IMG/VR virus record: IMGVR_UViG_3300036815_000017
Location: 1-24,605 of that record
Length of the DNA stretch: 24,605 nucleotides
Strand: one strand, 5' to 3'
DNA from: a virus
Lineage: Duplodnaviria > Caudoviricetes
Shown here one piece after another: positions 11,257 to 24,605 of the stretch. The stretch's first letter is position 1. Each line of letters begins with the position of its first letter. The notes under the pieces were generated by a model. It was not told where the DNA came from and made no database searches. It saw nothing but the letters and a program-made list of their open reading frames with translations. The position numbers and the translations under genes are program-made.

Positions 11257-11311
11257 GACCACCACCTCACGATAATCTCTAAATGATTTTATGAAAAATT
11301 AAGAATGTATA

Positions 11312-11340
11312 TTTACCAAATAAATACAAGCTGTTATAAT
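11312..11340 (+). promoter_or_regulatory. SigA-type promoter (extended -10), antisense to phage genes
   Basis: TTTACC-17bp-TATAAT with TGn upstream. Confidence 0.6.
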
Positions 11341-11346
11341 AAAGTT

Positions 11347-11397
11347 ACATTGCCATCGGATGAGACTTGAAAGCCAACAAGTTTCGTCCGTTTTTTT
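11347..11397 (+). ncRNA. Candidate ~50-nt small RNA (unit A)
   Basis: Promoter, then 13-bp stem CGGATGAGACTTG/CAAGTTTCGTCCG (two G-U on + strand) and T7. No ORF. Start estimated. Confidence 0.5.
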
Positions 11398-11399
11398 GT

Positions 11400-11615
11400 C
11401 TAGGCCTTCAAGAACTCATCAATCGTCTTATCTAACACGCTAATAAGAGACTCTCGTGCTTGTTTTGGTGTCATGTCATCGTTCATTTCGTTGTACATTG
11501 ATACAGCCTTTTCTAGTTTCTGTGGATCGATATGTTCTTTGACTAACTCCACTCCAAGGATGTTGTTGATTAACCTTCCTATCACTACTGATTGTTCTTG
11601 TTTAGTTAGTTTCAT
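11400..11615 (-). CDS. Hypothetical protein
   Basis: ORF with strong AAGGAGGAG SD. Confidence 0.8.
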   Translation of the reverse strand: MKLTKQEQSVVIGRLINNILGVELVKEHIDPQKLEKAVSMYNEMNDDMTPKQARESLISVLDKTIDEFLKA

Positions 11616-11648
11616 TTTTCCAACTCCTCCTTATGGTAATCCCTTTAT

Positions 11649-11676
11649 AAAATAAAAAAGCAGCGTATTCGCTACT
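11649..11676 (-). terminator. Intrinsic terminator
   Basis: AGTAGCG-aata-CGCTGCT followed by TTTTTATTTT. Confidence 0.7.
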
Positions 11677-11920
11677 GTAATTGTTCTACTATCTCATTAA
11701 ACAACTGTTGTCCTTTTTCCGGATATCTTTCTAATCCACCATCAGCAAAGTATTCACCTTCACTACAAATCACTTCAATCAATACGTCTCCTTTTTCCCA
11801 AACCTGTAAAGAGAACGCAACGCATGATTCGAATTCTTTTAACGCTTCTTCTCTGTCTGTGGTAGCCAACATAATATCCGTATCAGCATTGTCCCACATC
11901 ACAACTGTATAGATCAGCAT
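11672..11920 (-). CDS. Hypothetical acidic protein
   Basis: ORF with GAGGTG SD. Start ATG 11920 or TTG 11923. Confidence 0.75.
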   Translation of the reverse strand: MLIYTVVMWDNADTDIMLATTDREEALKEFESCVAFSLQVWEKGDVLIEVICSEGEYFADGGLERYPEKGQQLFNEIVEQLQ

Positions 11921-12014
11921 CAAATCACCTCGAAAGAATCATATTTTGAAAAATCCATAACGAAAACTAATTTATACAGGGAAATTAATAAGTTATACAT
12001 ATAACTTTCTTTCT

Positions 12015-12042
12015 AGTTTACATAACCATTCTTATACGCAGT
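12015..12042 (-). other. dif-like XerC/XerD (CodV/RipX) recombination core site
   Basis: Minus strand ACTGCGTATAA-GAATGG-TTATGTAAACT, 11-6-11 layout. Versus B. subtilis dif as recalled (ACTTCCTAGAA-TATATA-TTATGTAAACT): right arm 11/11, left arm 8/11. Confidence 0.8.
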
Positions 12043-12196
12043 TGATTAAAGTTGATATCATGGGAAATCGTTGATACCACTCACTTTCCGTTACATATCA
12101 TTCCATATATTTATGCATGATTTTATGCACGCCCTATTTTAGCGGGTTTCCAGCACCTAAACACCGTTATTTCCTGCATAAACTTCACTTTGTTAA

Positions 12197-12427
12197 CTAT
12201 CTATATTTTCGTTCGTTGTGTTCGTTTGTTTTGTTAGATCGCTTTTTAAGATATTCAGCAAACTTAGTTCTCACTCTTTCAAGTGCTTCCTTTCGTTCAA
12301 CTGCTCTATCTCTTTCGCTTGTTATATCATAAGGGCCATCAGCAGGATCAGGATAAACAATCTCATCGCAAATCTCCAAGAAGTAATCACCATCAATCTT
12401 TCCTAGTAACCACATCCTTGCATACAT
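12197..12427 (-). CDS. Possible hypothetical protein or gene remnant
   Basis: Protein-like composition from MYARMW..., but no clear SD. The longer ORF call crosses a terminator. Confidence 0.35.
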   Translation of the reverse strand: MYARMWLLGKIDGDYFLEICDEIVYPDPADGPYDITSERDRAVERKEALERVRTKFAEYLKKRSNKTNEHNERKYR

Positions 12428-12454
12428 ATTAAGATCGGCTAATTCCTGGTTTAC

Positions 12455-12489
12455 AAAAAACAAAAAGCCATCACCGAAGTGACAGCCTT
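12455..12489 (-). terminator. Strong intrinsic terminator with UUCG loop
   Basis: AAGGCTGTCAC-TTCG-GTGATGGCTTT followed by TTGTTTTTT. Confidence 0.85.
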
Positions 12490-12936
12490 CAAGGGGATGG
12501 GAGAAAAGAGAGAAAACAAATGGCAAAGTTTCTCTTCATTCAAGATTGAGATGAGTTACTCTCAACTTTCTCCAAATCACCGCATCAATAGTATGGCTAC
12601 ACGCCCTGTGTCGGTGACTGGGAGAAGAGCAAGAATCTTCTCGTTTATACTCCGTAGAGTCGGCTACTTAATGTCATTTTCACCATTTACGTTTGCACAA
12701 TGTGATTATATCCAGAGGGAATGTGTTTATTCCGTCCCCCTTGTTTGAACCAACACATAAGACTGAGGGGAATGTTCAGCTGTATTGGCTCAAACAAAGA
12801 GCGGAAGCTCTCTGCTCGTTTAGACCTATATTTTTAAAAAAATCCAGTTCATCCGACCGAACGAACCATCACCACATTTGTAAAGCGATCCATCTCGAAA
12901 TCAAGAACTTTGAAGTAGTTTCCGCTACCTCTCAGT
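12455..12936 (-). ncRNA. Candidate structured late-leader / non-coding RNA (~480 nt)
   Basis: Series of stems whose mismatches are G-U on the minus strand, cUACGg and cUUCGg tetraloops, bounded by predicted promoter and terminator. 5' end estimated. Confidence 0.6.
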
Positions 12937-12942
12937 AATAAT

Positions 12943-12999
12943 AGTGTATCACCTAATTATCAAGAACAGTGTGTCATCGTTGTGGCATGATTGTGGCTT
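12943..12999 (-). promoter_or_regulatory. Putative activator-dependent late promoter with upstream direct repeats
   Basis: TGaTACACT extended -10 (12951-12943), no good -35, three repeats AAGCCACAA/ATGCCACAA/ATGACACAC at 11-bp period in the 3' end of the activator gene. Confidence 0.6.
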
Positions 13000-13415
13000 C
13001 TTTTCATTCTGCTGCTTACTCTTCTAATATGGTCATAGCTATAACCTAGCTCACTAGCAACCTGTTTTAAATTGAACCCCATTACATCACGTAAATATAT
13101 AATTTGTTGTTCCAAACCTTTCTTTTTACTCATAACAAACTGTGCTTCCCCCATTAGTACCTTCTTATCAGTAATACGTTGTTTTAATCGCTCTGACTTC
13201 TCCATAATACGATCATGACGACCTGCAATTTCATCTAAAGCCAGTGGAATTTGTCCTCCTGTTACACGGTCCTTGCTGTAGTCTGTTACTCCATTAAACT
13301 TAGGCGCATTCATATGCATATTTTTAATCAGGTATTTATGTTCTAACTTCAGGTCCTTTAATTCAATCTCCATTAATTCAATTTCTTCTCCTAAGTTTTG
13401 ATAAATGTTTGTCAT
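12960..13415 (-). CDS. Late transcriptional activator (ArpU/RinA-like, sigma region-4-like HTH)
   Basis: N-terminal coiled coil, C-terminal IIYLRDVMGFNLKQVASELGYSYDHIRR HTH, last early gene before packaging module. Confidence 0.8.
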   Translation of the reverse strand: MTNIYQNLGEEIELMEIELKDLKLEHKYLIKNMHMNAPKFNGVTDYSKDRVTGGQIPLALDEIAGRHDRIMEKSERLKQRITDKKVLMGEAQFVMSKKKGLEQQIIYLRDVMGFNLKQVASELGYSYDHIRRVSSRMKRSHNHATTMTHCS

Positions 13416-13551
13416 GGTAAATCCCCCTATTTCGAATTTGTCTTTTTAACATCACATAAGGTACGTGAAATTTTAATATCTCATTGTTGAATAAGGGAAC
13501 GATAACTAGTAAGCAGCCCCCACCATCTACTCCCCATCGTTCCGCTATCCA

Positions 13552-13758
13552 TTAAGCTGTTTTCTTATTGATAGTACATCCTCTACTAAACTGCCATCCG
13601 TCATTTAAATGGTTCATTAACTGCTGATACGTAAATACATCAAACAACCAAACTCTTTGATCATGTTCAAACCCTGGTTCTTTTCGAAACAACATATATT
13701 CTCGTGTACCTTCGTATCTCTTTATAACACTCACCCCTTTATGATCTTGTCCATTCAC
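13552..13758 (-). CDS. Hypothetical protein (start uncertain)
   Basis: Co-oriented ORF filling the gap after DUF1064. Confidence 0.6.
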   Translation of the reverse strand: MNGQDHKGVSVIKRYEGTREYMLFRKEPGFEHDQRVWLFDVFTYQQLMNHLNDGWQFSRGCTINKKTA

Positions 13759-14161
13759 CTAACTTCTTGTCCCATATCACAACGATTAACTCCTGTTGAT
13801 TTTGAAACTCCCATAATCTTCTTCTTAATGGGAATCCTTCATTAATTGCCTTCTTATGCCCCTTAACATCTACAACCTCTACACGACCATCTGAGTACGT
13901 TACTTTAAAATCTGGTGTAAACCTCATAGCTGCCTTTTTCGACTTCCCTGACTTCGTTATGCTGCTCTTAATCTCAAATGATGGTATAAGAGTGAAAGCG
14001 GGATGACACTCTATGTGACTAACATCATCCCTGCTTTTTAAGTACTTGTAATAGTTCATTTCTGACTGAGAATCGAAGTTAATTCCGTCATAAGTTACTT
14101 TCTTTTGTTTAATTCGTGGCGCATTCTTTTTCTTGGTTGTTACCTTTCTCTTTCTAATCAA
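13739..14161 (-). CDS. DUF1064 family PD-(D/E)XK endonuclease
   Basis: DGINFDSQSE...PDF...VVDVKG motifs. TTG start with GAGG SD. Confidence 0.85.
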   Translation of the reverse strand: MIRKRKVTTKKKNAPRIKQKKVTYDGINFDSQSEMNYYKYLKSRDDVSHIECHPAFTLIPSFEIKSSITKSGKSKKAAMRFTPDFKVTYSDGRVEVVDVKGHKKAINEGFPLRRRLWEFQNQQELIVVIWDKKLGEWTRS

Positions 14162-14177
14162 CTAGTAACCTCACTTT

Positions 14178-14351
14178 CTATTTCATTTGTTCTTTACACT
14201 CTTCAAGAAAATCAATAACTTCCTGTATATGTTCCTTTGTTGTCATGCTTTCCATTACGTATCCTGCATCGTTATAAACATTAACCTTACTTCCTGTAAA
14301 TTCCATTCCACACATTCCATCTGCACCTAATAGCTTTACGTTATCTTCCAT
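14178..14351 (-). CDS. Hypothetical protein, 57 aa (MEDNVKLLGADGMCG...)
   Basis: Hand-translated, below ORF-track cutoff, GAGG SD. Confidence 0.7.
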   Translation of the reverse strand: MEDNVKLLGADGMCGMEFTGSKVNVYNDAGYVMESMTTKEHIQEVIDFLEECKEQMK

Positions 14352-14395
14352 TCTCCTAACCTCGCTTTCTATTCAAAGAATTGTTTTATTCAGTT

Positions 14396-14767
14396 TTATA
14401 TTTCTAATAACTCTGGATTATCATGAAGATTTCCTACCACTTCGAAATCTTCCCAATGTATATCTTTCGTTGTATACAAGCATTTTCCATAGGTATCGAA
14501 TTTATCAACAAAGCAGAAAGCTGCACGTTTTTCAGAAAACTCAATGTACAAAGGCAATTCGTCTAAGTCTTTTAATATATCGCCTTCATAAATCTCCTTT
14601 TCGTTCTTGTCATTCAATCCTGTGTATTGACCAACTGTATCAGCATAAACAATGTACAATTTTCCATTAACTGAAATCCCAGCATTTCCATTTTGTGTTT
14701 TTCTAAGATCCCCACAAGCCCACTCTGTACTATTGATTCTTCTGCCACGAAACTTTATTTCTCTCAT
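14396..14767 (-). CDS. YopX family protein
   Basis: MREIKFRG...GQYTGLNDKN-KEIYEGDI...EVVGN--DNPELL. Confidence 0.9.
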   Translation of the reverse strand: MREIKFRGRRINSTEWACGDLRKTQNGNAGISVNGKLYIVYADTVGQYTGLNDKNEKEIYEGDILKDLDELPLYIEFSEKRAAFCFVDKFDTYGKCLYTTKDIHWEDFEVVGNLHDNPELLEI

Positions 14768-14773
14768 TTCCCT

Positions 14774-14932
14774 CTACCTCCAACTGTTATAATTATCTAT
14801 TTCAAACTCATTTTTTCTTTTCAATGCAACTAAAAATTTCTTCACGCTATCATCTTTGCACTCTTTTATTTCTTCATTTAAAATTTCAATTTTATCTTTA
14901 TGTGGTTGTATTAAAATGTCTATCCATTTCAT
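14774..14932 (-). CDS. Hypothetical protein, 52 aa (MKWIDILIQPHK...)
   Basis: Hand-translated, GGGGG SD. Confidence 0.65.
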   Translation of the reverse strand: MKWIDILIQPHKDKIEILNEEIKECKDDSVKKFLVALKRKNEFEIDNYNSWR

Positions 14933-14945
14933 CTTTCTACCCCCT

Positions 14946-14974
14946 GAATAAAACCCAATATTCCGTCAATACTA
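14946..14974 (+). promoter_or_regulatory. SigG-like (forespore) promoter
   Basis: GAATA-17bp-AATACTA fits the GHATA-N17/18-MATACTA consensus. Confidence 0.5.
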
Positions 14975-14978
14975 TAGA

Positions 14979-15037
14979 CACCTAGTTGAGACAAGATCTC
15001 CATTAGGTGAGCAGTTAGCTTTTGCTAGCTGCTCTTT
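14979..15037 (+). ncRNA. Candidate two-hairpin small RNA (unit B)
   Basis: CACCTAGT..ATTAGGTG and GAGCAGTTAGC-tttt-GCTAGCTGCTC stems, G-U on + strand. U-tract is short. Confidence 0.45.
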
Positions 15038-15347
15038 AATATTCTGTTGATGCAATGATACAAGGGCTTGTAATGTTGTCATTTTTAATTACCCATTCAA
15101 ATGTTTTGCGGACTACTATTGAATCTCCAAGTGGTCTTCCACATTGAAAATTGTCCTTTTCACTTTCTGGCAATTCATCTATGTCTACATACGTAACTTC
15201 TTGCAAACTAACTTCCCCAACGAACCCTTCGTTTATATCCTCATCATCAAATCCACATTCTTTCTTGTAATACGCTTTTGCTTGTTCTTCCGTTTCTGCG
15301 CAAACCCAATCAGTATCATTCATTTTAAAAACCTTCATCATATCCAT
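15036..15347 (-). CDS. Hypothetical acidic protein
   Basis: ORF with SD. Confidence 0.8.
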   Translation of the reverse strand: MDMMKVFKMNDTDWVCAETEEQAKAYYKKECGFDDEDINEGFVGEVSLQEVTYVDIDELPESEKDNFQCGRPLGDSIVVRKTFEWVIKNDNITSPCIIASTEY

Positions 15348-15377
15348 TCCCCTTTTCTACAAAATGAAATTTTTATA

Positions 15378-15575
15378 CTAATTACTGTCATCCCTCATAA
15401 TCCAATTCAATTTCATAACTACCTGGTCCAAGATACCTATTTGATTATTAACACCATCACGATATTCCTCACCATGAACTCTTGAAAAACTATTTTGGAT
15501 CCGTTTTAAACCTGATTTTCTTCGTTTTAAATCAGTGATAAGCTGTTTAACTTCTTCAGATTTCAAACTGCACAT
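15378..15575 (-). CDS. Hypothetical protein (start uncertain)
   Basis: Co-oriented ORF between two junction motifs. Confidence 0.65.
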   Translation of the reverse strand: MCSLKSEEVKQLITDLKRRKSGLKRIQNSFSRVHGEEYRDGVNNQIGILDQVVMKLNWIMRDDSN

Positions 15576-15602
15576 CCTTTTCTATTCAAATAACGCTTTT
15601 GT

Positions 15603-15851
15603 TTAATGACGGAAATTTAAATATTTTATATTTCCAAATATGGTTTTCTTCACCATTACAGGTTTCCTGTCTTTAAATATTGGTTTGAGTGATTTTTCAA
15701 ATTCAGTAGAATCTACAATTTCCCTAATCCATTCTCCACTTACAAATGGTAAGGCTGAGTTTGGTCTTTTGAAATATACCTCCAAACAATCATCAAATAC
15801 TTTTGTAATGATGGCTTCCATGCGACAATATTTAGCGTACTGACCAATCAT
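15603..15851 (-). CDS. Hypothetical protein
   Basis: GGAGGTG SD, bounded by junction motifs. Confidence 0.75.
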   Translation of the reverse strand: MIGQYAKYCRMEAIITKVFDDCLEVYFKRPNSALPFVSGEWIREIVDSTEFEKSLKPIFKDRKPVMVKKTIFGNIKYLNFRH

Positions 15852-15880
15852 TAAAACACCTCCAAAAAAAACGCTTTGAT

Positions 15881-16051
15881 TTAGTTTTCTTGCTTATTTT
15901 TCTTATACTCAACGTCAGTTACTATCAAAGAAGTACATTCATTACACCCAATAGTTCCATCTCTCATTTGAAACCAATAATAGTCGTTGTCGCATTTACA
16001 ACCACGTTCTTTTGCTATCTTAAACATCTCTCTTTTCTTTTTAGATACCAT
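15881..16051 (-). CDS. Small CxC...CxxC putative zinc-binding protein, 56 aa
   Basis: Hand-translated MVSKKKREMF...GCKC...GCNEC..., GAGGG SD. Confidence 0.7.
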   Translation of the reverse strand: MVSKKKREMFKIAKERGCKCDNDYYWFQMRDGTIGCNECTSLIVTDVEYKKNKQEN

Positions 16052-16107
16052 AGCAATCCCTCACTTTCGTACAAAATTCAAATTTCATTCCAATTAATTG
16101 CCTTTTA

Positions 16108-16137
16108 TTGCATTCATTTGGGATTTCGTGGTAATAT
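16108..16137 (+). promoter_or_regulatory. SigA-type promoter (extended -10), antisense
   Basis: TTGCAT-18bp-TAATAT with TGn. Confidence 0.55.
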
Positions 16138-16143
16138 TAATCT

Positions 16144-16218
16144 ATAAAGTCATTAATTTGGCTTTAACCTTATACAAGGAGCCATGAGCCTTCACAACTC
16201 ATGGCTCTTCCCATTTTT
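16144..16218 (+). ncRNA. Candidate ~75-nt small RNA (unit C)
   Basis: TAAAGTCA/TGGCTTTA stem then GGAGCCATGAG/CTCATGGCTCT stem and pyrimidine tail. No ORF. Confidence 0.45.
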
Positions 16219-16220
16219 AT

Positions 16221-16487
16221 TTACTTTTCCCTAGCCTTCGCCAAACGTTCCGCAGCTTGTTGTCTTTGTTCTTCAGACATCACCCGAATTTGTTTCATAC
16301 TTACTTGTTTTTCTTGCAATACACCTTTAACAGCTATCGGTCGACCATCCTCTTCTTCTAAAGTTTTTAAATCACATAGATTACTAAGTTTTCTAATGTG
16401 TTTCGGAACAGTAGAGTAAACCATCCACTCCCCTGTGCCGTTGTCAAAAACTAGAGTTGTTTCTTGTTCATCGCGAGAATATGCCAT
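16221..16487 (-). CDS. Conserved-looking phage hypothetical protein
   Basis: ORF with AAGGGG SD. Confidence 0.8.
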   Translation of the reverse strand: MAYSRDEQETTLVFDNGTGEWMVYSTVPKHIRKLSNLCDLKTLEEEDGRPIAVKGVLQEKQVSMKQIRVMSEEQRQQAAERLAKAREK

Positions 16488-16515
16488 TGTTTATTTACCC
16501 CTTTCCTTAATTTAA

Positions 16516-17019
16516 TTAATATCCCGAATTCAAACGATCATAGTTAACTTGATTCTTTTCAAAGTACGATTTTTCCATATCCTCACCCGACATTTCCATT
16601 TTCTTACCGATGGCCAATAATGCAGATAACGCATGAGAGTAGTCAAAAATACAAGAGTAGTCAGTCTTATAAATAATTGATAATAACTTATGGAAACTAT
16701 AATCATGTTCAATGAATTTCTCAGCAATTTTAAATGTTCTGCTTGTCCCTAGAATCAATTCGACATGCCCATACTTATTGCCCAGACTCGCCATAAAGTG
16801 CATGCAATCCGCCCACTCATCGTACTGACGTGCCTTATCATCATTCTTGTTTTTCTTCCAGTATTTAAAGAATCCGATCTCTTGCGCGAGCTCCCCAAGT
16901 TCTACGTATAAAGCCTGTGTCACATCGCCTGTTAAGTTCTGCCCTTCTAAACCATGAACCTCAACAATCTTACGATCTAGCTTGTCCTGCGCTTCAAAAA
17001 TCTTTTGTATGTTTAACAC
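16516..17019 (-). CDS. dut: Dimeric all-alpha dUTPase
   Basis: Q--LD, ALYVELGELAQE--FKYWK, DEWADCMHF, Y-EKN-VN--R---GY motifs. Confidence 0.88.
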   Translation of the reverse strand: MLNIQKIFEAQDKLDRKIVEVHGLEGQNLTGDVTQALYVELGELAQEIGFFKYWKKNKNDDKARQYDEWADCMHFMASLGNKYGHVELILGTSRTFKIAEKFIEHDYSFHKLLSIIYKTDYSCIFDYSHALSALLAIGKKMEMSGEDMEKSYFEKNQVNYDRLNSGY

Positions 17020-17032
17020 TCATATCCGCTCC

Positions 17033-17200
17033 TTATAGAAAATTTAATAATGTTTTTTGACGTTCTTCTAATTCTTTAATTTTCTTTTCTGTATTCTCAA
17101 CTTCGATTTTAGCCATTGTAAGGTGATATTTGTATTTGTTTATTTCATCTTGATTCGTTACGATTTCGCTTTTTATTTGAACTAAAGTCGATTCTTTCAT
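17033..17200 (-). CDS. Hypothetical coiled-coil protein, 55 aa
   Basis: Hand-translated MKESTLVQIK..., AGGAGG SD. Confidence 0.75.
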   Translation of the reverse strand: MKESTLVQIKSEIVTNQDEINKYKYHLTMAKIEVENTEKKIKELEERQKTLLNFL

Positions 17201-17209
17201 AAAAACCTC

Positions 17210-17455
17210 CTATACTCCTAATCTAGTCATTACTTTTCCTTCCTGGAATCCATAAATCACTGGGTCATTTTCGATAATTAGAGATGGCATTGTCATGAGA
17301 TCATGTTTTTGAATGTAATGAGAATTTTTAGGTTCCTCTACGTTGAGATAACTTACATCTAAAACAGCGACATCAGAAGGGAAATTATCCAACATCATTT
17401 TTAATCGTTTACAATCGTTACAATTATTTTTAGTGAATACTGTAATCTTAATCAT
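17210..17455 (-). CDS. Glutaredoxin/NrdH-like redoxin
   Basis: ITVFTKNNCNDC (CxxC), cis-Pro motif TMP, GF. True start ATG 17455. Confidence 0.85.
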   Translation of the reverse strand: MIKITVFTKNNCNDCKRLKMMLDNFPSDVAVLDVSYLNVEEPKNSHYIQKHDLMTMPSLIIENDPVIYGFQEGKVMTRLGV

Positions 17456-17624
17456 TTTGTTCTTCCCCTTTAGTGAATTTAACTTGAATGTCGTTACCTC
17501 TAAAACTTGTAATTTCGAATGCATACCCCTTATTTTGAAACCCTAAAACGCATTCGTAATATTTATAAACTTGATCAGGATCACTTAAATCAAAAGTTAT
17601 AATTTCAGTTTTAGCTATGTGCAT
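17448..17624 (-). CDS. Hypothetical protein, 58 aa (MHIAKTEII...)
   Basis: Hand-translated, AAGGAG SD, stop overlaps redoxin start. Confidence 0.7.
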   Translation of the reverse strand: MHIAKTEIITFDLSDPDQVYKYYECVLGFQNKGYAFEITSFRGNDIQVKFTKGEEQND

Positions 17625-17691
17625 TTCGTTTCTCCTTTGCTTCTGCTAATAATTTAGTAATTTCATACGTACCATGCTCTGTATATTTCAT
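17611..17691 (-). CDS. Micro-ORF, 26 aa (MKYTEHGTYEITKLLAEAKEKRNAHS)
   Basis: GGGGAG SD, TAATG coupling to upstream gene. Confidence 0.6.
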   Translation of the reverse strand: MKYTEHGTYEITKLLAEAKEKRNAHS

Positions 17692-17900
17692 TATTTTCTC
17701 CCCTTTATCACATAAGTTTTAAATGATTCACCTTTACGGTTAAAAGACACTATGTTCATCCCGTGAAAATCTCGGTGCCATTTGAACGACTTGTCTAATT
17801 CTGAACAACTATTACCCTTGCTTCCAATTTCGTTATTCTTCATACCTTTCCACGATTCTTTCATGGCCTTGCTGATTTGCCGATTACGTGTATATCTCAT
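17691..17900 (-). CDS. Hypothetical basic protein
   Basis: ATGA coupling, AAGGAGG SD. Confidence 0.75.
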   Translation of the reverse strand: MRYTRNRQISKAMKESWKGMKNNEIGSKGNSCSELDKSFKWHRDFHGMNIVSFNRKGESFKTYVIKGRK

Positions 17901-18091
17901 CGCGATTCCTCCTTGTATTTAGATAAGATAGTCATTAATGCAATTGCCGTCCCTTCATTCGCAATCCATTTCCCTCTATAGAAACCAGCAAGTCCTAAAT
18001 CTTCAGCTTCGTAAGCCTTATCAGCTTCTTTTCTGTTTTCCACCGCTGATTGTTGTAACTGTTCGATATACTCCTCAATCGCTTCCATCAT
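17897..18091 (-). CDS. Hypothetical protein
   Basis: Coupled ORF with AGGAG SD. Confidence 0.75.
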   Translation of the reverse strand: MMEAIEEYIEQLQQSAVENRKEADKAYEAEDLGLAGFYRGKWIANEGTAIALMTILSKYKEESR

Positions 18092-18486
18092 TCTCCTGTG
18101 CCTCCCTGTAATAACTCTGGATTCTCAAACTTATTTCCAATCACTTCTGCCCAATGTCTCATTCTGTGAAGGTACCAACCTCCGCAACTCAGTTCCATAT
18201 ATTCGTTATATCCCACCTCATAGTTACCATCCATATCAATTGAACCGTGGAATGGATGGCCACTAATTTGAACAATGTCTCCTTCATAAATTGGATTTCC
18301 CATTTTGTCATTCAACCCAGTGTATTGTAATGGTTTTAACTGAGTGTATTCGCCGTTATCAATTCGATAAATTGCTAATTCGCCATAGGATAACCATGCA
18401 TCTAAGTTATCTTCACTTTCGATTTCATCACCTGAATACATCTTTTTAAGATCCTCATCCCATGCTTTAAACTTAATTTCTCTCAT
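18088..18486 (-). CDS. YopX family protein (second copy)
   Basis: MREIKFKAWD...QYTGLNDK-G--IYEGDIV...EVIGN-FENPELL. Start ATG 18486. Confidence 0.9.
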   Translation of the reverse strand: MREIKFKAWDEDLKKMYSGDEIESEDNLDAWLSYGELAIYRIDNGEYTQLKPLQYTGLNDKMGNPIYEGDIVQISGHPFHGSIDMDGNYEVGYNEYMELSCGGWYLHRMRHWAEVIGNKFENPELLQGGTGE

Positions 18487-18613
18487 TCTCCCCATCCCTT
18501 TCCAAAAGCCCCGCCAGTTCCTCGCAACTCCCTTCAAATAAGTCGCGTCCGTCTGGTAGCTTGAATATATTTTTCTGAATCAGTATTTCTATTAAAACGT
18601 CTTGCCTGTCCAT
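18473..18613 (-). CDS. FbpA-like small protein, 46 aa
   Basis: Hand-translated MDRQDVLIEILIQKNIFKLPDGRDLFE..., AGGAGG SD. LI--LI---IFK--DGR-L-E pattern resembles the Fur-regulated basic protein A family. Confidence 0.6.
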   Translation of the reverse strand: MDRQDVLIEILIQKNIFKLPDGRDLFEGSCEELAGLLERDGENERN

Positions 18614-18621
18614 GTTGCCTC

Positions 18622-19041
18622 CTAGCTGATTTGTTTCTTCTTATATTTCCGTGGTGGTTTTGTTGCTGCTTCGTAAGGGTCCACATCTCTACTAATTCTT
18701 GCGTAAAATGATGATGTACTTATTCCATTTTCCTGTGCCATTTTTATAAGTGCTTCCCATTTATTGTGTTTCTTTGGTGTTGTTACTGCTTCATAAGGGT
18801 TCATACCGTCTTTAATTCTTTTGTATAAAGTTGTATGACTAATCCCATTCCGCTCCGCAAGTGTTTTCATTCCAGCGCTTATTCCAATTTCACTTTTTTT
18901 CTCTCTAACCGGTACCGTTATAGCGCGTTCTATCTCCCATCCACTCTCATTAACTCGTAGATACACATTCATTTTGCTAATTCCGTTCTTGGCAGCCTTC
19001 TCGTAATCCTCATCAGTAATAACAGGTCCGTAATACTTCAT
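18622..19041 (-). CDS. Protein with three tandem HTH-like repeats
   Basis: A--NGIS----Y-R-----(W/P)-E-A-T-P repeated three times. ATG 19041 with GGAG SD. Confidence 0.8.
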   Translation of the reverse strand: MKYYGPVITDEDYEKAAKNGISKMNVYLRVNESGWEIERAITVPVREKKSEIGISAGMKTLAERNGISHTTLYKRIKDGMNPYEAVTTPKKHNKWEALIKMAQENGISTSSFYARISRDVDPYEAATKPPRKYKKKQIS

Positions 19042-19051
19042 TTCGTCACTC

Positions 19052-19321
19052 CTAATCCAATGCCATGATTTCATCTCTCGTACGGTCAGAACGAGTTATC
19101 CTAATCTTCTGAATGCCTTTACCGTGTTCTTTCACTGACGCGCTCCATGCTTCGCTCTCAGTCTTTACATCGAACCAATCAATACGTTGCTTTTCTTCCT
19201 TGTCATAGAATTCAACAGCGTATGTCGTTATGACGGGTGTCTTCGCTAAGAATTGCTCCGATGTACTTGTAGCTGCGTAATCGAAACTTCCTACAACATC
19301 CTCCAGTGTCAGTTGCTTCAT
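19052..19321 (-). CDS. Hypothetical protein
   Basis: ATGA-coupled ORF. Confidence 0.75.
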   Translation of the reverse strand: MKQLTLEDVVGSFDYAATSTSEQFLAKTPVITTYAVEFYDKEEKQRIDWFDVKTESEAWSASVKEHGKGIQKIRITRSDRTRDEIMALD

Positions 19322-19605
19322 GCCCCTAACCCCATCGGACGTGATTTAATCTCGTTCTTATCCGCTTGATCCATTATTAATGCTGCGATTTCTAACTGGT
19401 GTCTTCCTAGCTCTACTGCTATTTCAATTATGTTTTTGCCCTCTTTCCACATTTCTTGCAATCGAATCACTTCGCTCTCATCAAATACCAGGTCCAGTTC
19501 TTCTAAAGCGATATACATGTTACGACGCGAGTTCTTCATATACTTCCTTTGCTGTGCTGCTATTGTGTAATTCTCCTTTTCCAAATCCGTTCCAAGTCTC
19601 GGCAT
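19318..19605 (-). CDS. Putative helix-turn-helix protein
   Basis: MWKEGKNIIEIAVELGR HTH-like segment. Confidence 0.7.
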   Translation of the reverse strand: MPRLGTDLEKENYTIAAQQRKYMKNSRRNMYIALEELDLVFDESEVIRLQEMWKEGKNIIEIAVELGRHQLEIAALIMDQADKNEIKSRPMGLGA

Positions 19606-19783
19606 CCCATTTCCCCTCCATTTGTAATTGATGAATTGCTCTTAGTTCCGCCATAACGGCATGACGTCTTCTATCCACTTCTTCAGGTGTCCGATTCCCT
19701 GCTTCGCAAATACATGGTGCAAATTGGTACATTCCCGTTCCTATATCGTTTCTGATTACTCCCGTTCCGTTACATGTACACAT
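19520..19783 (-). CDS. Hypothetical protein with N-terminal CxCxGxG...CxC zinc motif
   Basis: Start ATG 19783 or 19789, GGGGG SD. Confidence 0.7.
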   Translation of the reverse strand: MCTCNGTGVIRNDIGTGMYQFAPCICEAGNRTPEEVDRRRHAVMAELRAIHQLQMEGKWDAETWNGFGKGELHNSSTAKEVYEELAS

Positions 19784-19816
19784 TGTCATTCCCCCTTTTG
19801 TTTTCAAAAAACGCTT

Positions 19817-20080
19817 TTATTCAAATTTTTGATTTTGCCATTCAGTTATACAAGCTGATTTGATCTCCTCTGATTCTTGTGTTTCCTCATCGAAATCAAT
19901 AACAGCGTAACTTGGTACTATTAAAAACTCTTTACCGCATACATTGCATTTAGGATTTCCGTATGCATAAATCCCTTTTATAGTCTCGAATTCCAGTAAA
20001 TCCAAATCTGCATTATCAAAAGCTACAAGACCGTTACAATTTTCTCCATTGCATTTATGCGCTTCAATAGCCATTTTCAT
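19817..20080 (-). CDS. Putative zinc-ribbon protein
   Basis: CNGENC...CNVC, GGGGG SD. Confidence 0.7.
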   Translation of the reverse strand: MKMAIEAHKCNGENCNGLVAFDNADLDLLEFETIKGIYAYGNPKCNVCGKEFLIVPSYAVIDFDEETQESEEIKSACITEWQNQKFE

Positions 20081-20087
20081 TTCCCCC

Positions 20088-20984
20088 TTAGAATCCTAAA
20101 TGTTCAATACGTTTATCTGATGTTTCCTTAAATACAATCGCTTCAGCTTTATTTAAAATCCGACTTCCAAGCTTCTTATCATATTTTTTAAATATGTCAC
20201 CGCTTGATAAGTTAGTTGTTGTGATCGTTACTTTCCCTTGTCTTCCGTTCGTTACGGCATATAGTACACGTTGGATGAAGTTGCTTGCTTCGTCCGTTCT
20301 GTTCATCGATCCGCTCTCTGCACCTAAGTCATCCAGTACCAGGAAGTCAACGCTTGTTAGAAGGTCCACACAATACTCTTCCGTATACTTAGAATCTTTG
20401 TTGTTAAAGGAATCTTTGATAAGTCGCATAAGTTGTTCAATCTCGACATACAAGCAGCTTTTCATTTTTTGATAGAGTAGCTCGTCATTATCCTTCTCAC
20501 CATCTGATATTTCATAGAAATGACTTCTTAATTCTCTTAGGATTGAATAAGCTAAATGGCTTTTACCTGCACCTTGCACACCTACAATAAATACGTTTTT
20601 AACCTCACCTGCTTTTAGGCTCTCTACAATGCCTTCTACGAGCCTTTTATTTGTTCTAGTCTCATTACATTCAGTTCTATAGTTAGATAGCGTAGCTTCG
20701 AGTATTTCCTCGTTACTAATGATGCTGTGCTTTGTAAGCATGTTGAACTTCTTAGTTCTTTTGATTTTCTTATAGTGATTGTTCGCCTGTTCTTTTAATA
20801 CTTTGTCGTTTTCCTCAACAACACATCGTGGGCAGACAACTTGTCCTTTGAATTCAATCATCTGAACAGGCTTAACGAATTTTTGGCCACCTATTTCATA
20901 AGAATGGTTCATGCATTTATCAGAATGGAAGTTCACCTTTAAATCCAGGGATTTGGCTACCCTTTGCATTGCTGTTGCCGTCAT
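20088..20984 (-). CDS. DnaC/IstB-like AAA+ helicase loader
   Basis: Walker A GVQGAGKS, Walker B LVLDDLGAE, TTN, SR. Probable start 20984 (AAGGAG SD). Confidence 0.9.
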   Translation of the reverse strand: MTATAMQRVAKSLDLKVNFHSDKCMNHSYEIGGQKFVKPVQMIEFKGQVVCPRCVVEENDKVLKEQANNHYKKIKRTKKFNMLTKHSIISNEEILEATLSNYRTECNETRTNKRLVEGIVESLKAGEVKNVFIVGVQGAGKSHLAYSILRELRSHFYEISDGEKDNDELLYQKMKSCLYVEIEQLMRLIKDSFNNKDSKYTEEYCVDLLTSVDFLVLDDLGAESGSMNRTDEASNFIQRVLYAVTNGRQGKVTITTTNLSSGDIFKKYDKKLGSRILNKAEAIVFKETSDKRIEHLGF

Positions 20985-21759
20985 GGTTTTTCGCTCCTTT
21001 TTCATTTAGATAACCTTCAAATTTAGTCCCAAATAACGTTTCTGGTCGTAAGTACTGGTTCATGTTCGAATCTTTTAACCACTGTGCTGTTTTAATATCA
21101 ATAACTTGCTTGAAATCATCTATAGTAAAACCGTCTTTAAATCTAGCTTTGATTAACGATCTAGTTTTCGCTGTTTTATGTTTAAAAGATTTACCAGCTT
21201 CTTTATTAAGATAAGAAACAATATCTTCATAAGGGATGCAGTCTTTTGGCTGCTCTTTTTGGCCAGAAGACATAGTATCTTTTAATGTAGTAATCTCTGT
21301 AGTATTCTTTGTAGTAATCTCTGTTAAAGAATTCACCCTTTCGGTAAGTTCCATTTCACCCAAAGGGGAATTTGGATTTTCCCCAAAGGTCAAAATGGAT
21401 TTTACCCTTTCGGTAACTTCGGAAATGTTTAACTTAATGTGATTTGTTGGAGCTCCATTAAATTTGAACTTTTGAACTTCCACAAATCCTTTTTCGATTA
21501 AGATTTTAATTGCACGATCATATTGTTTAGGCGTGATTCTTATCTCAGTTCGCCAGTCCTCACGACCTTTAGCTAACCAAAACCCTCCGTTTTTCTTAAC
21601 TCTTAATTTGCTCTTACCTTGTTCATTTGGCATGTACCAATAAACGATTTGCCCTAACAGGATTCCAGCGATTAAATCATCAGTTATATCGACATAAGCG
21701 AGTCGTACCATATAACCATTTCTTGCAAATGTTTCTAGTTGAAATATGTTACTACTCAC
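20920..21759 (-). CDS. Phage replication initiator / replisome organiser
   Basis: N-terminal wHTH, conserved phage C-terminal domain (IVSYLN...YLRPETLFGTKFEGYLN), adjacent to loader, contains iterons. Confidence 0.88.
   Translation of the reverse strand: MSSNIFQLETFARNGYMVRLAYVDITDDLIAGILLGQIVYWYMPNEQGKSKLRVKKNGGFWLAKGREDWRTEIRITPKQYDRAIKILIEKGFVEVQKFKFNGAPTNHIKLNISEVTERVKSILTFGENPNSPLGEMELTERVNSLTEITTKNTTEITTLKDTMSSGQKEQPKDCIPYEDIVSYLNKEAGKSFKHKTAKTRSLIKARFKDGFTIDDFKQVIDIKTAQWLKDSNMNQYLRPETLFGTKFEGYLNEKGAKNHDGNSNAKGSQIPGFKGELPF
21286..21420. repeat. Putative replication origin iterons
   Basis: Four related units starting at 21332, 21355, 21378, 21401 (23-bp period, ACCCTTTCGGTAA twice), plus TGTAGTAATCTCTGT at 21286 and 21310. 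Confidence 0.75.
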
Positions 21760-22002
21760 TTAATTCACCTTCTTCATTTCCGTTTCATAGAAGCAATCTG
21801 TTTCATCGATTTCACCCGTTCTATGAATACTTTCTGTATTTACAACTCTTCTTGCTGGATAAACGCATTCGTAACCTTCTTTCGACCATTCATACATTTT
21901 GTATCCGATTTCCGTTTTGGTTTCACCGCGAATATATTTGTTCTCTTTAGTCTTACTTGGAATAATGAAGCTATATCGTTTTGATCTGTACACTGTTTTC
22001 AT
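21760..22002 (-). CDS. Hypothetical protein
   Basis: ATG 22002 overlaps upstream stop (TGATG). Confidence 0.7.
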   Translation of the reverse strand: MKTVYRSKRYSFIIPSKTKENKYIRGETKTEIGYKMYEWSKEGYECVYPARRVVNTESIHRTGEIDETDCFYETEMKKVN

Positions 22003-22178
22003 CACATCACGTCCCTTTCGCATACCGCTATGTCGCCTTGAATTTTGATTATTTTGTACCCTGGATAGCGATCAGGAGTGATGTACTCAATCGCCTTCAT
22101 TTTTGCTTCTTTTTCAGTTCGTACGCCCTTCCATACCCATGAAGGAAGGACGACTTTCGATTGGTTTTTATCTAACAT
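22002..22178 (-). CDS. Hypothetical protein, 58 aa (MLDKNQSKVVLPSWVW...)
   Basis: Hand-translated, AGGAG SD. Confidence 0.75.
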   Translation of the reverse strand: MLDKNQSKVVLPSWVWKGVRTEKEAKMKAIEYITPDRYPGYKIIKIQGDIAVCERDVM

Positions 22179-22190
22179 AGGCTTTCGCTC

Positions 22191-22982
22191 CTAACTAAGT
22201 ATTTGAGAGTAATGAATTACTTTTGTTAATCGCTTCGTTTGTCTGCAATAAGCGCATTTTTCACATCTATTAGGCTTGTCCATTCCATGTTTCACTGATA
22301 AAACACGAGGCAAGTTCTCTTCAACTTCATCTAATTCCAGTTGGATGATTTCGTCATCAAAGTTAATCACTGCTTTATCAGGATGTTTTTCCTTTGATAC
22401 CGCTACAATGAATGGTTCTAACCAGTTTTCTCTGCCGGACCATCGTTTTTCCAACTCGGCATATACTGCCATTTGAATTGTGTATCCATATGCTTCAACA
22501 AATGAGCAATATCCGTATTCATCCGTCCAAACCTTGTCGTATATGGACTTAACTGTCTTTAAATCAACGAATCTTCCATTGAGAGGGTTATATACATCTA
22601 GTTTCGATTTCCAATGTGTACCGAATAGCTCGGCTGTTATGATGACTTCTTTTTCTCCTTCTAGAGCAAACATGCACAATCCATCATCTTTTAGAGTTTC
22701 AATCATCAGATCTGCATTTTTATATTGGGAGTAAAGTTCTCCGCTTCTTGTAAAGAGAGAAGGAGTCTTCTCTTTAAATTGATCAAGTGCTCCTTCTAAC
22801 CAAGCATGTACATATGAACCAAGTAACAGGCTTTCGTTATGTTCTTCTTTCCATTCACCTTTTAACTTCGCAAGTGCTGCCGCTTCACATTTCCTAAAGG
22901 CTTTATATTGACTGACTGACATGTATTGCATATCCGCTTCTTGTGAGTAGTAATTTTCATCATTCAGTTGTAGAAGGTTCAT
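22191..22982 (-). CDS. PD-(D/E)XK exonuclease (DUF3799/RecE-like)
   Basis: SVSQYK, GSYVH, K-KLD...VDLKT, Y-IQMAVY, C-terminal CEKCAYC. Confidence 0.85.
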   Translation of the reverse strand: MNLLQLNDENYYSQEADMQYMSVSQYKAFRKCEAAALAKLKGEWKEEHNESLLLGSYVHAWLEGALDQFKEKTPSLFTRSGELYSQYKNADLMIETLKDDGLCMFALEGEKEVIITAELFGTHWKSKLDVYNPLNGRFVDLKTVKSIYDKVWTDEYGYCSFVEAYGYTIQMAVYAELEKRWSGRENWLEPFIVAVSKEKHPDKAVINFDDEIIQLELDEVEENLPRVLSVKHGMDKPNRCEKCAYCRQTKRLTKVIHYSQILS

Positions 22983-23814
22983 CTTTTACACCCTCTGTTT
23001 GTTGGAATTGAGCTTCTAAATTTGATTTAGTAGGACTTGTCTTCTTTGTATCGAAGAAGTCTTCTTTTTTGCCTACACCGTCACGAATTGAAGTGTAAAT
23101 GCGCCCTAATTTCACAAAGTCATGTTCTGTAAAAGCATCAACATTCAACTGTAATGATTCTTCAATCATTTCCTTTGTTACACCAAACTCTTTTTTGAAT
23201 GCATCTAACGCTTTGCGTAAGCGATCTTCTAAAGGTTCTTTCTGTCCATTTACCAAAGTGTCATTGCACTTCTGTACAGCAGCGTCGACAATATCTCCCG
23301 GAATAATTCCTAAGATACAAGCTCGCATTCTTCGCGTGCCCATATTTGCAGTTAATTCGTAAACATCTCGGCTGTCAGTTAGTTTATTTGTTTTCCCTTT
23401 TGCTTTTCGTTCATGTTTAACAGTGAATATTTTCGTTTGGCGTGTGTTTGTTTCAAGATCCCACGCATAAGCCATCATTGAAGATTCACCATCTTTTTGA
23501 TCTAACTCAATAATTCCGTAATCAATGTTCCCCCAGTTTCTTGCGATGACTTCAGCAAGCCTGATTGATGGTCCTTGAACTTTTTGACCGCCTTTCGGAT
23601 ATTGATACACTGCATTTTCAGCAACCAATTTACGTTCGCACTCTTTCATAATTCTTTGAAATGAATCATATGTGTCTCTAGGGAAGTTTTTAGCTACATA
23701 CATAGCCATTTGTACTTCTTGTGCTTGTCGACTTACCATAGCCTCTGTAGCTGTACTTTTAGCCTCTGGCTTTGGCATATATTCTGAGTAATCGATATTT
23801 GATAATCCGTTCAT
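22960..23814 (-). CDS. Putative single-strand annealing recombinase
   Basis: Adjacent to exonuclease in recombination module. AK-FPRD, GPSIRLAE---RNWGN, AWDLETN motifs. Function inferred from context. Confidence 0.6.
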   Translation of the reverse strand: MNGLSNIDYSEYMPKPEAKSTATEAMVSRQAQEVQMAMYVAKNFPRDTYDSFQRIMKECERKLVAENAVYQYPKGGQKVQGPSIRLAEVIARNWGNIDYGIIELDQKDGESSMMAYAWDLETNTRQTKIFTVKHERKAKGKTNKLTDSRDVYELTANMGTRRMRACILGIIPGDIVDAAVQKCNDTLVNGQKEPLEDRLRKALDAFKKEFGVTKEMIEESLQLNVDAFTEHDFVKLGRIYTSIRDGVGKKEDFFDTKKTSPTKSNLEAQFQQTEGVKDEPSTTE

Positions 23815-23832
23815 TATTAATCTCTCCTTTTA

Positions 23833-24018
23833 TTAAAATGGCGCTAATTCAGTTTGTTTACTAGCTTCATATACTTCTTGTAACGCTTGTAACCCGTATT
23901 CATAAGCTAGAACCATAGATGATGCATTAGGTTCGTCACTTTGCTTATATCGTTCAACTAAACTTATTAGAATTTGAATTTCAGCTTCAATTTTGTTTTG
24001 TAGGCCCATCTTATTCAC
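23833..24018 (-). CDS. Hypothetical protein
   Basis: Co-oriented coupled ORF. Confidence 0.7.
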   Translation of the reverse strand: MNKMGLQNKIEAEIQILISLVERYKQSDEPNASSMVLAYEYGLQALQEVYEASKQTELAPF

Positions 24019-24211
24019 CTGCTACTTTCTTTGTAGAATGAGACTCTACATATTGTTTGATGCATTCTGTTTCTGCGTGTAGGTAATCTCCACCGAAATC
24101 TAAGCAACTTTCTCCAAAATAGATTTCTCCATTACAACCACAACAAAGTTCAATGAAGTCTCTTGCTGATGAATCATGGTGATTTCCAATTAGCATTCCG
24201 TTTTCAATCAT
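24011..24211 (-). CDS. YqaI-like small protein with CxxC..H..C
   Basis: MIENGM..N.HD start and location before the recombinase/exonuclease pair recall skin-element yqaI. Confidence 0.6.
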   Translation of the reverse strand: MIENGMLIGNHHDSSARDFIELCCGCNGEIYFGESCLDFGGDYLHAETECIKQYVESHSTKKVAGE

Positions 24212-24383
24212 TTTTACGTCCCTCCATTAAGTTGATAGCTTGTCCTTGTGGTTTATCAAAAACAACTTTTAATGGTTGGAATAACATTGATGACATTTGA
24301 AGCATTTCGTTTTGCTCATTTGTTAATGCCACTGGGTATAGCACTCCATCCTTGCAATACATTAAAACTACGCCGTCTTTCAT
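24204..24383 (-). CDS. Hypothetical protein, 59 aa (MKDGVVLMYCKDGVLYPVAL...)
   Basis: Hand-translated, AAGGAGG SD. Confidence 0.75.
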   Translation of the reverse strand: MKDGVVLMYCKDGVLYPVALTNEQNEMLQMSSMLFQPLKVVFDKPQGQAINLMEGRKND

Positions 24384-24397
24384 AATTAATATCCTCC

Positions 24398-24427
24398 TTG
24401 TTTTTAGGAGAAAACATTTGGTATAAT
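24398..24427 (+). promoter_or_regulatory. SigA-type promoter (extended -10), antisense
   Basis: TTGTTT-18bp-TATAAT with TGn. Confidence 0.65.
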
Positions 24428-24433
24428 GTAATT

Positions 24434-24486
24434 GGATATTTACATTTGTTTTCTCTAAACCGTCCTATTGGTGAGGGCGGTTTTTT
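24434..24486 (+). ncRNA. Candidate ~53-nt antisense small RNA (unit D)
   Basis: AAACCGTCCT/AGGGCGGTTT stem (G-U on +) with T-tract. No ORF. Confidence 0.55.
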
Positions 24487-24496
24487 ATTTTCTCAA

Positions 24497-24576
24497 TAGA
24501 AATTAACAAATAATTCTGTTAAGATTAAATTACCGATATGTGTAACAACCGGCCTGTGCTTCTGTACGGGCTTTTT
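24497..24576 (+). ncRNA. Promoter plus candidate ~45-nt small RNA (unit E)
   Basis: TAGAAA-17bp-TAAGAT with TGn, then GGCCTGTGC-ttct-GTACGGGCT and TTTT (three G-U on +). Confidence 0.45.
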
Positions 24577-24605
24577 ATGATGCTTTCACGCATCGGAATA
24601 TCCAG

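What the first reader, a model, noticed from the sequence alone, without database searches (positions are those of the whole stretch)
11312..24576. Five ORF-less promoter-plus-hairpin mini-units antisense to the lytic genes: a possible phage small-RNA repertoire
Seen: most intergenic gaps of ~100 bp or more contain a + strand promoter followed within ~45-75 nt by a terminator-like hairpin, with no ORF: A 11312-11397, B 14946-15037, C 16108-16218, D 24398-24486, E 24497-24576. Four have TGn extended -10 boxes. In all five the stem mismatches are G-U only on the + strand, arguing for selection on + strand RNA rather than minus-strand terminators. The 5' segments differ. Known: lambdoid prophages encode similar short seed-plus-terminator sRNAs/anti-sRNAs. 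Inference: RNA-only 'morons' expressed in the lysogen, acting on host RNAs, defence systems or leaky lytic transcripts.
Basis: partly seen in the sequence, partly recalled or inferred. Interest (0 to 1): 0.78.

Follow-up and report, generated by a model that had tools for sequence, protein, structure and literature searches.

The report
Phage small RNA matching receptor gene
Bacillus cereus-group phages, the classic gamma phage among them, carry tiny likely RNA genes between their lytic genes, and one of them is complementary to the start of the host gene for the phage receptor GamR, so it is predicted to switch the receptor off and likely keeps rival phages out.

Summary
The five units are real, but they are five separate conserved families, not one, and not scars. 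The window is a Bacillus cereus-group siphophage fragment.

A: an 11-base exposed 5' seed is kept in 64 viral loci and in Gamma and Wbeta while promoter, hairpin and position change. It pairs with the start codon region of host gamR, the gamma-phage receptor gene (identity fixed by published primers). Predicted: RNA-based receptor shut-off. Pairing statistics alone are modest (window seed: 7 of 40 decoy sets do as well).

D: a cis antisense RNA predicted to flip the early-operon leader into a ribosome-site-hiding fold; the pairing arms co-vary.

B: forespore-type promoter, 20-74-base variable payload, fixed terminator; no host target beat controls.

C, E: conserved, targets unclear.

No Rfam match; no transcript data. 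The scan noted B-type cassettes before on other DNA; the GamR link and the D switch were not found in its notes, nor GamR with an sRNA in my paper searches.

The parts
11312..11340 (+). Unit A promoter: sigma-A type, TG-extended -10
   Evidence: top site (10 of 12); kept in relatives
11347..11357 (+). Unit A 5' seed (11 bases), complementary to bases -1 to +10 of host gamR mRNA
   Evidence: 0.90 unpaired
11357..11397 (+). Unit A terminator hairpin and T run
   Evidence: family stem 95% paired with compensatory changes
14945..14974 (+). Unit B promoter: forespore-type (sigma-F/G-like) boxes, 17-base spacer
   Evidence: sigma assignment rests on a recalled consensus
14975..15008 (+). Unit B variable payload (hairpin with anti-Shine-Dalgarno letters)
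15009..15037 (+). Unit B near-invariant terminator
16108..16137 (+). Unit C promoter: sigma-A type, TG-extended -10
   Evidence: sequence; homologs
16145..16218 (+). Unit C RNA: 5' hairpin, conserved single-stranded stretch, terminator
24392..24416 (-). Ribosome site of gene 24204-24383 and the pyrimidine-rich arm that can hide it (leader of the early recombination-replication operon)
24419..24427 (+). Unit D extended -10 box
   Evidence: sequence
24434..24488 (+). Unit D RNA: antisense to the leader arm (24441-24456) that normally frees the ribosome site, then terminator
24204..24383 (-). First gene downstream of the D leader (59 aa, phrog_16626)
24517..24577 (+). Unit E: extended -10, conserved 20-base payload, terminator

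Best explanation
The five units belong to five separate, conserved families of promoter-payload-terminator cassettes of Bacillus cereus-group phages that likely make small regulatory RNAs, and unit A's 5' end is complementary to the start codon region of the host receptor gene gamR, so it is predicted to block receptor synthesis and likely limits attachment of rival phages. Shown: the cassettes, their conservation, the complementarity and the identity of gamR. Inferred: transcription, pairing in the cell, lower GamR, protection. D is predicted to act in cis: the lytic leader folds so that the ribosome site of the first recombination-replication gene is free, and the D RNA would unzip that fold and let a second hairpin hide the site. 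B likely fires under a forespore-type or phage-made sigma factor and carries a swappable anti-ribosome-site payload whose targets I could not find. C and E likely act in trans; C has a weak lead to a second wall-anchored protein.
For: A: 64 of 89 viral loci found by the promoter alone carry the seed; 63 of the 64 keep all 11 pairs, the two common changes being C to U opposite G. Gamma, Wbeta, J5a and Carmel carry the window's exact seed behind another promoter, before another gene, with another hairpin; Gamma's receptor is GamR (PMC10644760, PMC9863714, passages). An unbiased exact search of five whole genomes gave 3 sites, one at a gene start; that gene is a 595-residue DUF4430/LPKTG protein whose two ends match the published gamR primers. 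The 11-mer sits at the gamR start in 5 of 5 genomes and is the only shared site among 16; 30 of 46 gamR starts keep it whole, 4 more keep 10 bases. gamR ranks first of 2741 start regions for the family seed (-21.5 against -17.7 next; 4 of 200 shuffles; 0 of 40 decoy sets). D: the two arms change together across three sequence types; 39 of 42 loci of a second type keep the inverted repeat and the other 3 pair by G-U on the lytic strand; blocking the arm hides the ribosome site in 7 of 10 window-type leaders (mean unpaired 0.50 to 0.02). B: 102 of 132 terminators have the box 10-82 bases upstream against 17 of 264 control windows.
Against: No transcript was seen. The pairing is short: from the predicted +1, 7 of 40 (window) and 6 of 40 (family) decoy sets give an equally good best hit, 62 of 200 shuffles match the window seed, and with four more flanking bases gamR falls to rank 3. 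The gamR site is only 0.33-0.48 unpaired, net gain -6 to -10 kcal/mol. The ranking covers 2.8 of 5.2 Mb, with my own crude gene calls, and one block was chosen to hold gamR. 12 of 46 gamR starts break the pairing. No compensatory change between seed and target was found. The virulent Walpha mutant lyses the Wbeta lysogen (PMC4113786 section 14), so exclusion cannot be complete if it uses GamR; one paper doubts that all Wbeta relatives share a receptor (PMC8878798). This phage's own receptor is unknown. D: only 16 of 39 leaders of the second type switch, 1 goes the other way, and one variant (L218, L223) pairs better on the + strand. B: 0 of 4 SASP-like genes showed the box.
Confidence: 0.62

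Rival explanations
1. The units are small RNAs, but A's real target is another mRNA, such as the replication-initiator gene of competing prophages, and the gamR match is coincidence.
For: A DnaD-domain prophage gene ranks second with 11-12 pairs, first when the window seed is extended; an 11-mer occurs about three times per genome; half of the chromosome and most phage genes were not ranked.
Against: That pairing needs two G-U pairs; the gamR site is perfect, shared by all five genomes tested, and belongs to the known receptor of phages that carry the seed.
Confidence: 0.2
2. All units work in cis or as DNA parts: antisense dampers, insulating terminators and recombination points for swapping accessory genes, like PeSL cassettes; payload letters are incidental.
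For: All face the lytic transcript; B-type units stand in tandem between variable genes; B payloads beat decoy medians in only 47 of 153 cases; D does look cis-acting.
Against: A cis damper needs no fixed sequence, yet A's seed outlasts its promoter, hairpin and position; blocking A, B or C does not change access to the neighbouring ribosome site; PeSLs point along their genes by my reading of the abstract, these point against them.
Confidence: 0.12
3. The selected feature lies on the lytic strand: ribosome sites with mini-ORFs or mRNA stabilisers, of which the + strand seeds are only the mirror image.
For: Read on -, A and many B payloads give a Shine-Dalgarno-like word and a start codon.
Against: The mini-ORFs fall in all three frames among B variants and differ between A variants (sequence); G-U pairs and T runs favour +.
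Confidence: 0.04
4. Promoter and terminator scars of deleted protein morons, or chance.
For: Promoter-like sites are not enriched as a class.
Against: No relative holds a same-strand gene in slot B (0 of 103); payloads are conserved and stems compensated.
Confidence: 0.02

Closest known systems
STnc6030 of Salmonella prophage BTP1 (PMC7067206, passages) and sas of P22 (PMC12197685, table)
   Same: Prophage RNA linked to superinfection exclusion, transcribed against lytic genes.
   Different: Both act in cis on phage transcripts; A is about 50 bases and is predicted to act in trans on a host receptor mRNA.
DicF and other trans-acting prophage sRNAs (PMC12197685, passages)
   Same: Short seed plus terminator, host mRNA target.
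   Different: Enterobacterial; targets are division or metabolic genes; no sequence likeness (Rfam).
TldR RNA-guided flagellin control by temperate phages (PMC13418256, search listing only)
   Same: Phage RNA specificity used to remodel a surface structure that phages bind.
   Different: TldR is a protein acting on DNA with a guide; A has no partner protein in view and pairs with mRNA.
P22 sar, lambda OOP, P1 C4 and plasmid antisense leader switches (recalled; OOP in PMC7067206 passage)
   Same: D is a short cis antisense RNA over the leader of a lytic-side gene.
   Different: D is predicted to work indirectly through an anti-anti-Shine-Dalgarno fold that spans its own promoter.
CsfG, RoxS/RsaE, FsrA C-rich sRNAs of Bacillus (PMC8216469, passages)
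   Same: B-family payloads have C-rich loops; CsfG is under sigma-F/G.
   Different: B is mobile, multi-copy, with a fixed frame and a swappable payload; no Rfam match.
PeSL cassettes of T4-type phages (PMC2839356, abstract)
   Same: Small promoter-plus-stem-loop cassettes among variable accessory genes.
   Different: Here the cassettes oppose the genes and carry conserved or anti-ribosome-site payloads.

Membership tests
Trans-acting base-pairing sRNA (unit A) | Own promoter and intrinsic terminator, no ORF | tested here: met
Trans-acting base-pairing sRNA (unit A) | Conserved exposed seed complementary to a conserved translation-start region elsewhere | tested here: met
   significance of pairing alone is modest
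Trans-acting base-pairing sRNA (unit A) | Compensatory change between seed and target | tested here: inconclusive
   only wobble-compatible changes seen
Trans-acting base-pairing sRNA (all units) | Discrete transcript and repression in the cell | not testable with these tools
   needs RNA data and reporters
Superinfection-exclusion factor (unit A) | Target is a receptor of phages that carry the element | tested here: met
   Gamma carries the seed and uses GamR; not shown for this window's phage
Superinfection-exclusion factor (unit A) | Protects the carrier from infection | not testable with these tools
   Walpha still lyses the Wbeta lysogen, Gamma does not; repressor immunity confounds this
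Cis antisense leader switch (unit D) | Two mutually exclusive leader folds, conserved by covariation | tested here: met
   7 of 10 window-type leaders switch
Cis antisense leader switch (unit D) | Switch holds across the whole family | tested here: inconclusive
   16 of 39 in the second type
Forespore sigma-F/G sRNA, CsfG-like (unit B) | Sigma-F/G promoter boxes | tested here: inconclusive
   102 of 132 fit a recalled consensus; no paper confirmed the consensus; 0 of 4 SASP-like genes fit
Forespore sigma-F/G sRNA, CsfG-like (unit B) | Match to a curated family | tested here: not met
Type I antitoxin RNA | Long overlap with a convergent small toxin gene | tested here: not met
   A ends 3 bases short of gene 11400-11615, B overlaps gene 15036-15347 by 2 bases, C ends before 16221
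CRISPR-repeat mimic or type III antitoxin RNA | Likeness to a known repeat or antitoxin family | tested here: not met
   no Rfam match at gathering score or near it
PeSL-type mobile cassette | Repeated cassette at gene-swap points | tested here: inconclusive
   true of tandem B units in relatives; the five units here share no sequence; recombination not tested

The most novel reading that the evidence does not exclude
Temperate phages of the Bacillus cereus group carry an interchangeable kit of tiny RNA genes that rewrites the host surface: A silences the phage receptor GamR (superinfection exclusion by an RNA alone, present in Gamma and Wbeta and overlooked), C silences a second sortase-anchored wall protein, D locks the replication operon, and B is a programmable slot for the spore stage.
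Probability: 0.4. Interest if true: 0.92.

Novelty: new variant of a known kind. Interest (0 to 1): 0.83.

Why it matters
If true, a 50-base RNA lets a phage shut the door it came through by repressing its host receptor's mRNA. The exclusion RNAs in the reviews I read act in cis on phage transcripts; I found no trans RNA against a receptor gene in these phages. It sits unannotated in long-studied phages (Gamma, Wbeta, Fah, Cherry), gives a precise one-reporter test, would help explain host range and lysogen resistance in B. thuringiensis and B. cereus, and shows that such cassettes can point to unknown receptors by complementarity.

Tried and rejected
No RNA holder was listed for window 11200-16300; this is no evidence either way. 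Rfam: nothing at gathering score, only chance-level matches at E up to 5. B targets: a dynamin-like gene (top hit for 20 of 153 payloads) and a GerM-like gene (9 of 153; both names recalled from the sequence) looked attractive but failed decoys that keep ribosome-site statistics (21-22 of 40 decoy sets as good; 47 of 153 payloads beat the decoy median, 8 beat all 9 sets). D and E host targets: 6 and 8 of 40 decoy sets as good. C: family seed's best hit is a 56-residue gene (3 of 40 decoys), second the wall-anchored cyclic-nucleotide phosphodiesterase that ends like the published basA primer; the 12-mer is not enriched over its control in 71 genomes, the window's C is weaker (12 of 40) and variants L220/L223 break it, so it stays a lead. 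The 14 bases that D shares with the minus-strand unit near 12510 do not co-vary with D type. Pairing between A and E was seen by eye and not supported by duplex energies. None of 24 relatives of the gene beside C carries C there. C and D/E have no match among annotated phages. Cluster look-ups gave only a DUF4430 name. One search used a mis-registered structure; one search is the valid count. PMC7759979 could not be opened.
Full report
Setting. The window is a 24.6-kb virus record. All called genes lie on the minus strand: head and tail genes, terminase, a late-activator-like gene at 12960-13415, small accessory genes, DnaC loader, replication initiator and exonuclease. Its relatives are temperate phages and prophages of the Bacillus cereus group.

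The observation. Four of six gaps of 100 bases or more hold one. Rfam has no family for any. They share no common sequence; each has its own relatives.

Unit A. A search by the promoter alone gave 89 viral loci; 64 continue with the same seed, a hairpin and a T run (I dropped 25 hits without the seed, two of which passed the first filter). In 24 aligned members the stem is 95% paired, with 8 cells changed on both sides (0 of 500 shuffles). The window's hairpin is largely rewritten, yet the seed stays. A search with the BtCS33 copy found 59 Bacillus phage records among 97, including Gamma, Wbeta, Cherry, Fah, J5a, F16Ba and z1a (the 35 Lactococcus matches were not examined). The four Wbeta-type records I opened carry the window's exact seed behind a different promoter and before a different gene. 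So the seed outlasts promoter, hairpin and position, as expected of a trans-acting RNA.

Its target. An exact search for the 13-base complement in five whole genomes gave 3 sites (reversed control 10): one inside a reading frame, one the phage unit itself, one a gene start. That gene is found in 64 of 70 scored genomes and encodes a DUF4430 protein with an LPXTG anchor. Table S1 of PMC3208642 gives primers for gamR whose two ends match this gene and a length of 1787 bases, which fits 595 residues. GamR is the receptor of phage Gamma (PMC10644760, PMC9863714, PMC4113786; passages). The seed covers bases -1 to +10, the start codon included; that pairing there blocks initiation is recalled knowledge. 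Of 64 seeds, 63 keep all 11 pairs, through C-to-U changes opposite G. The 11-mer lies at the gamR start in 5 of 5 genomes and the other 11 sites are not shared. Of 46 gamR starts listed, 30 keep it, 4 lose one base and 12 break it, mostly at codon 3 (I left out 9 listed matches in other genes). Among 2741 start regions that I called on 2.8 of 5.2 Mb of G001, with one block chosen to include gamR, gamR ranks first for the family seed. The statistics weaken for the seed read from the predicted +1: 6 of 40 and, for the window, 7 of 40 decoy sets do as well, and a prophage DnaD-domain gene is close behind. The case therefore rests on what the hit is, the receptor of phages that carry the seed, more than on pairing energy. 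Against it: Walpha lyses the Wbeta lysogen while Gamma does not (PMC4113786, section 14); PMC8878798 says the receptor may differ among Wbeta relatives; this phage's tail tip is outside the record.

Unit D. Of 18 relatives of the gene at 24204-24383, 14 carry a unit in or near this slot. A stretch of the promoter spacer and a stretch of the payload are complementary and change together across three sequence types. On the lytic strand they form a leader hairpin; the spacer arm can instead pair with the ribosome site. With the payload arm blocked, as the D RNA would block it, the site closes in 7 of 10 window-type leaders (0.50 to 0.02 unpaired) but in only 16 of 39 of the second type, with 1 opening. 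In that type 39 of 42 loci keep the repeat and 3 pair by G-U on the lytic strand; L218 and L223 favour the other strand. The genes behind the leader overlap or nearly touch as far as the exonuclease, so the switch could reach the recombination-replication operon (inference). The same test changes nothing for A, B or C.

Unit B. Its left motif and terminator frame payloads of 20-74 bases in 25 length classes; 0 of 103 in-context viral loci hold a same-strand gene there (17 of 120 hits were unrelated). Two-piece matches are tandem units. In 123 genome loci, 102 of 132 terminators have a forespore-type box upstream, against 17 of 264 control windows; a strict form precedes 17 of 2741 genes and occurs once in the window, at B. 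The consensus is recalled; no paper I could open confirmed it, and 0 of 4 SASP-like genes fit. A phage sigma factor is a rival reader: Fah encodes a sigma-F relative. Payloads carry anti-start-codon and anti-ribosome-site letters and C-rich loops, but no host target beat decoys. Earlier notes of this scan describe this family on other DNA.

Units C and E. C has 10 homologs among 15 terminator matches, plus 3 in D-slot loci, with compensated hairpins around a conserved single strand. Its lead to the basA-like wall protein is weak. E has 22 loci with a conserved payload and no target.

In print. Searches for GamR with sRNA, for GamR with small RNA, exclusion and antisense, for B's terminator letters, and for B. 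cereus or B. thuringiensis prophage small RNAs listed nothing on these units (listings only). The library lacks most subscription papers, and bioRxiv supplements are closed, so transcript tables of B. cereus-group strains may hold these RNAs unseen. The scan's notes have no entry with GamR and no look-alike of A or D/E. Papers seen: PMC3208642 (passages, Table S1), PMC4113786 (passages, section 14), PMC10644760, PMC9863714, PMC8878798, PMC12197685, PMC7067206, PMC7438776, PMC8216469, PMC3174212 (passages), PMC2839356 (abstract), PMC8844932 and PMC13418256 (listings).

Verdict. Real RNA-like cassettes (about 0.85); A acts on gamR (about 0.62); D is a cis switch (about 0.6); B, C and E targets open. 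A new variant of phage small RNAs with a sharp, cheap test.

Noticed in passing
window 12430-12950, minus strand: The 1-kb gap behind the late-activator-like gene holds several hairpins and ends in a pyrimidine-rich stretch plus a UUCG terminator (12463-12530).
   Followed up: partly
window 24578-24605; L219, L220, L222, L228, L576: The record ends in the first arm of a conserved multi-hairpin element that reads on the lytic strand with a C-rich loop; it follows D or E in many relatives.
   Followed up: no
window 14360-14395, 15348-15377, 15576-15602, 15852-15880, 16052-16085, 19808-19830: Short gaps between accessory genes share an A-rich then T-rich junction motif ahead of each ribosome site; possible cassette-exchange or protein-binding sites.
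   Followed up: no
L438-L467: Host gamR starts vary mainly at codon 3 (Met to Ile), inside the site that unit A would bind; possibly escape, numbers small.
   Followed up: partly
L015 payload; G001 1502610: One B-family payload (5 loci) pairs over about 17 bases with one host start region, matched by 2 of 40 decoy sets; one of many tried.
   Followed up: partly
35 Lactococcus phage records match part of the A unit; not opened.
   Followed up: no
L221, L226, L229: Further unrelated promoter-payload-terminator units lie near the D slot in relatives, so the repertoire is larger than five.
   Followed up: no
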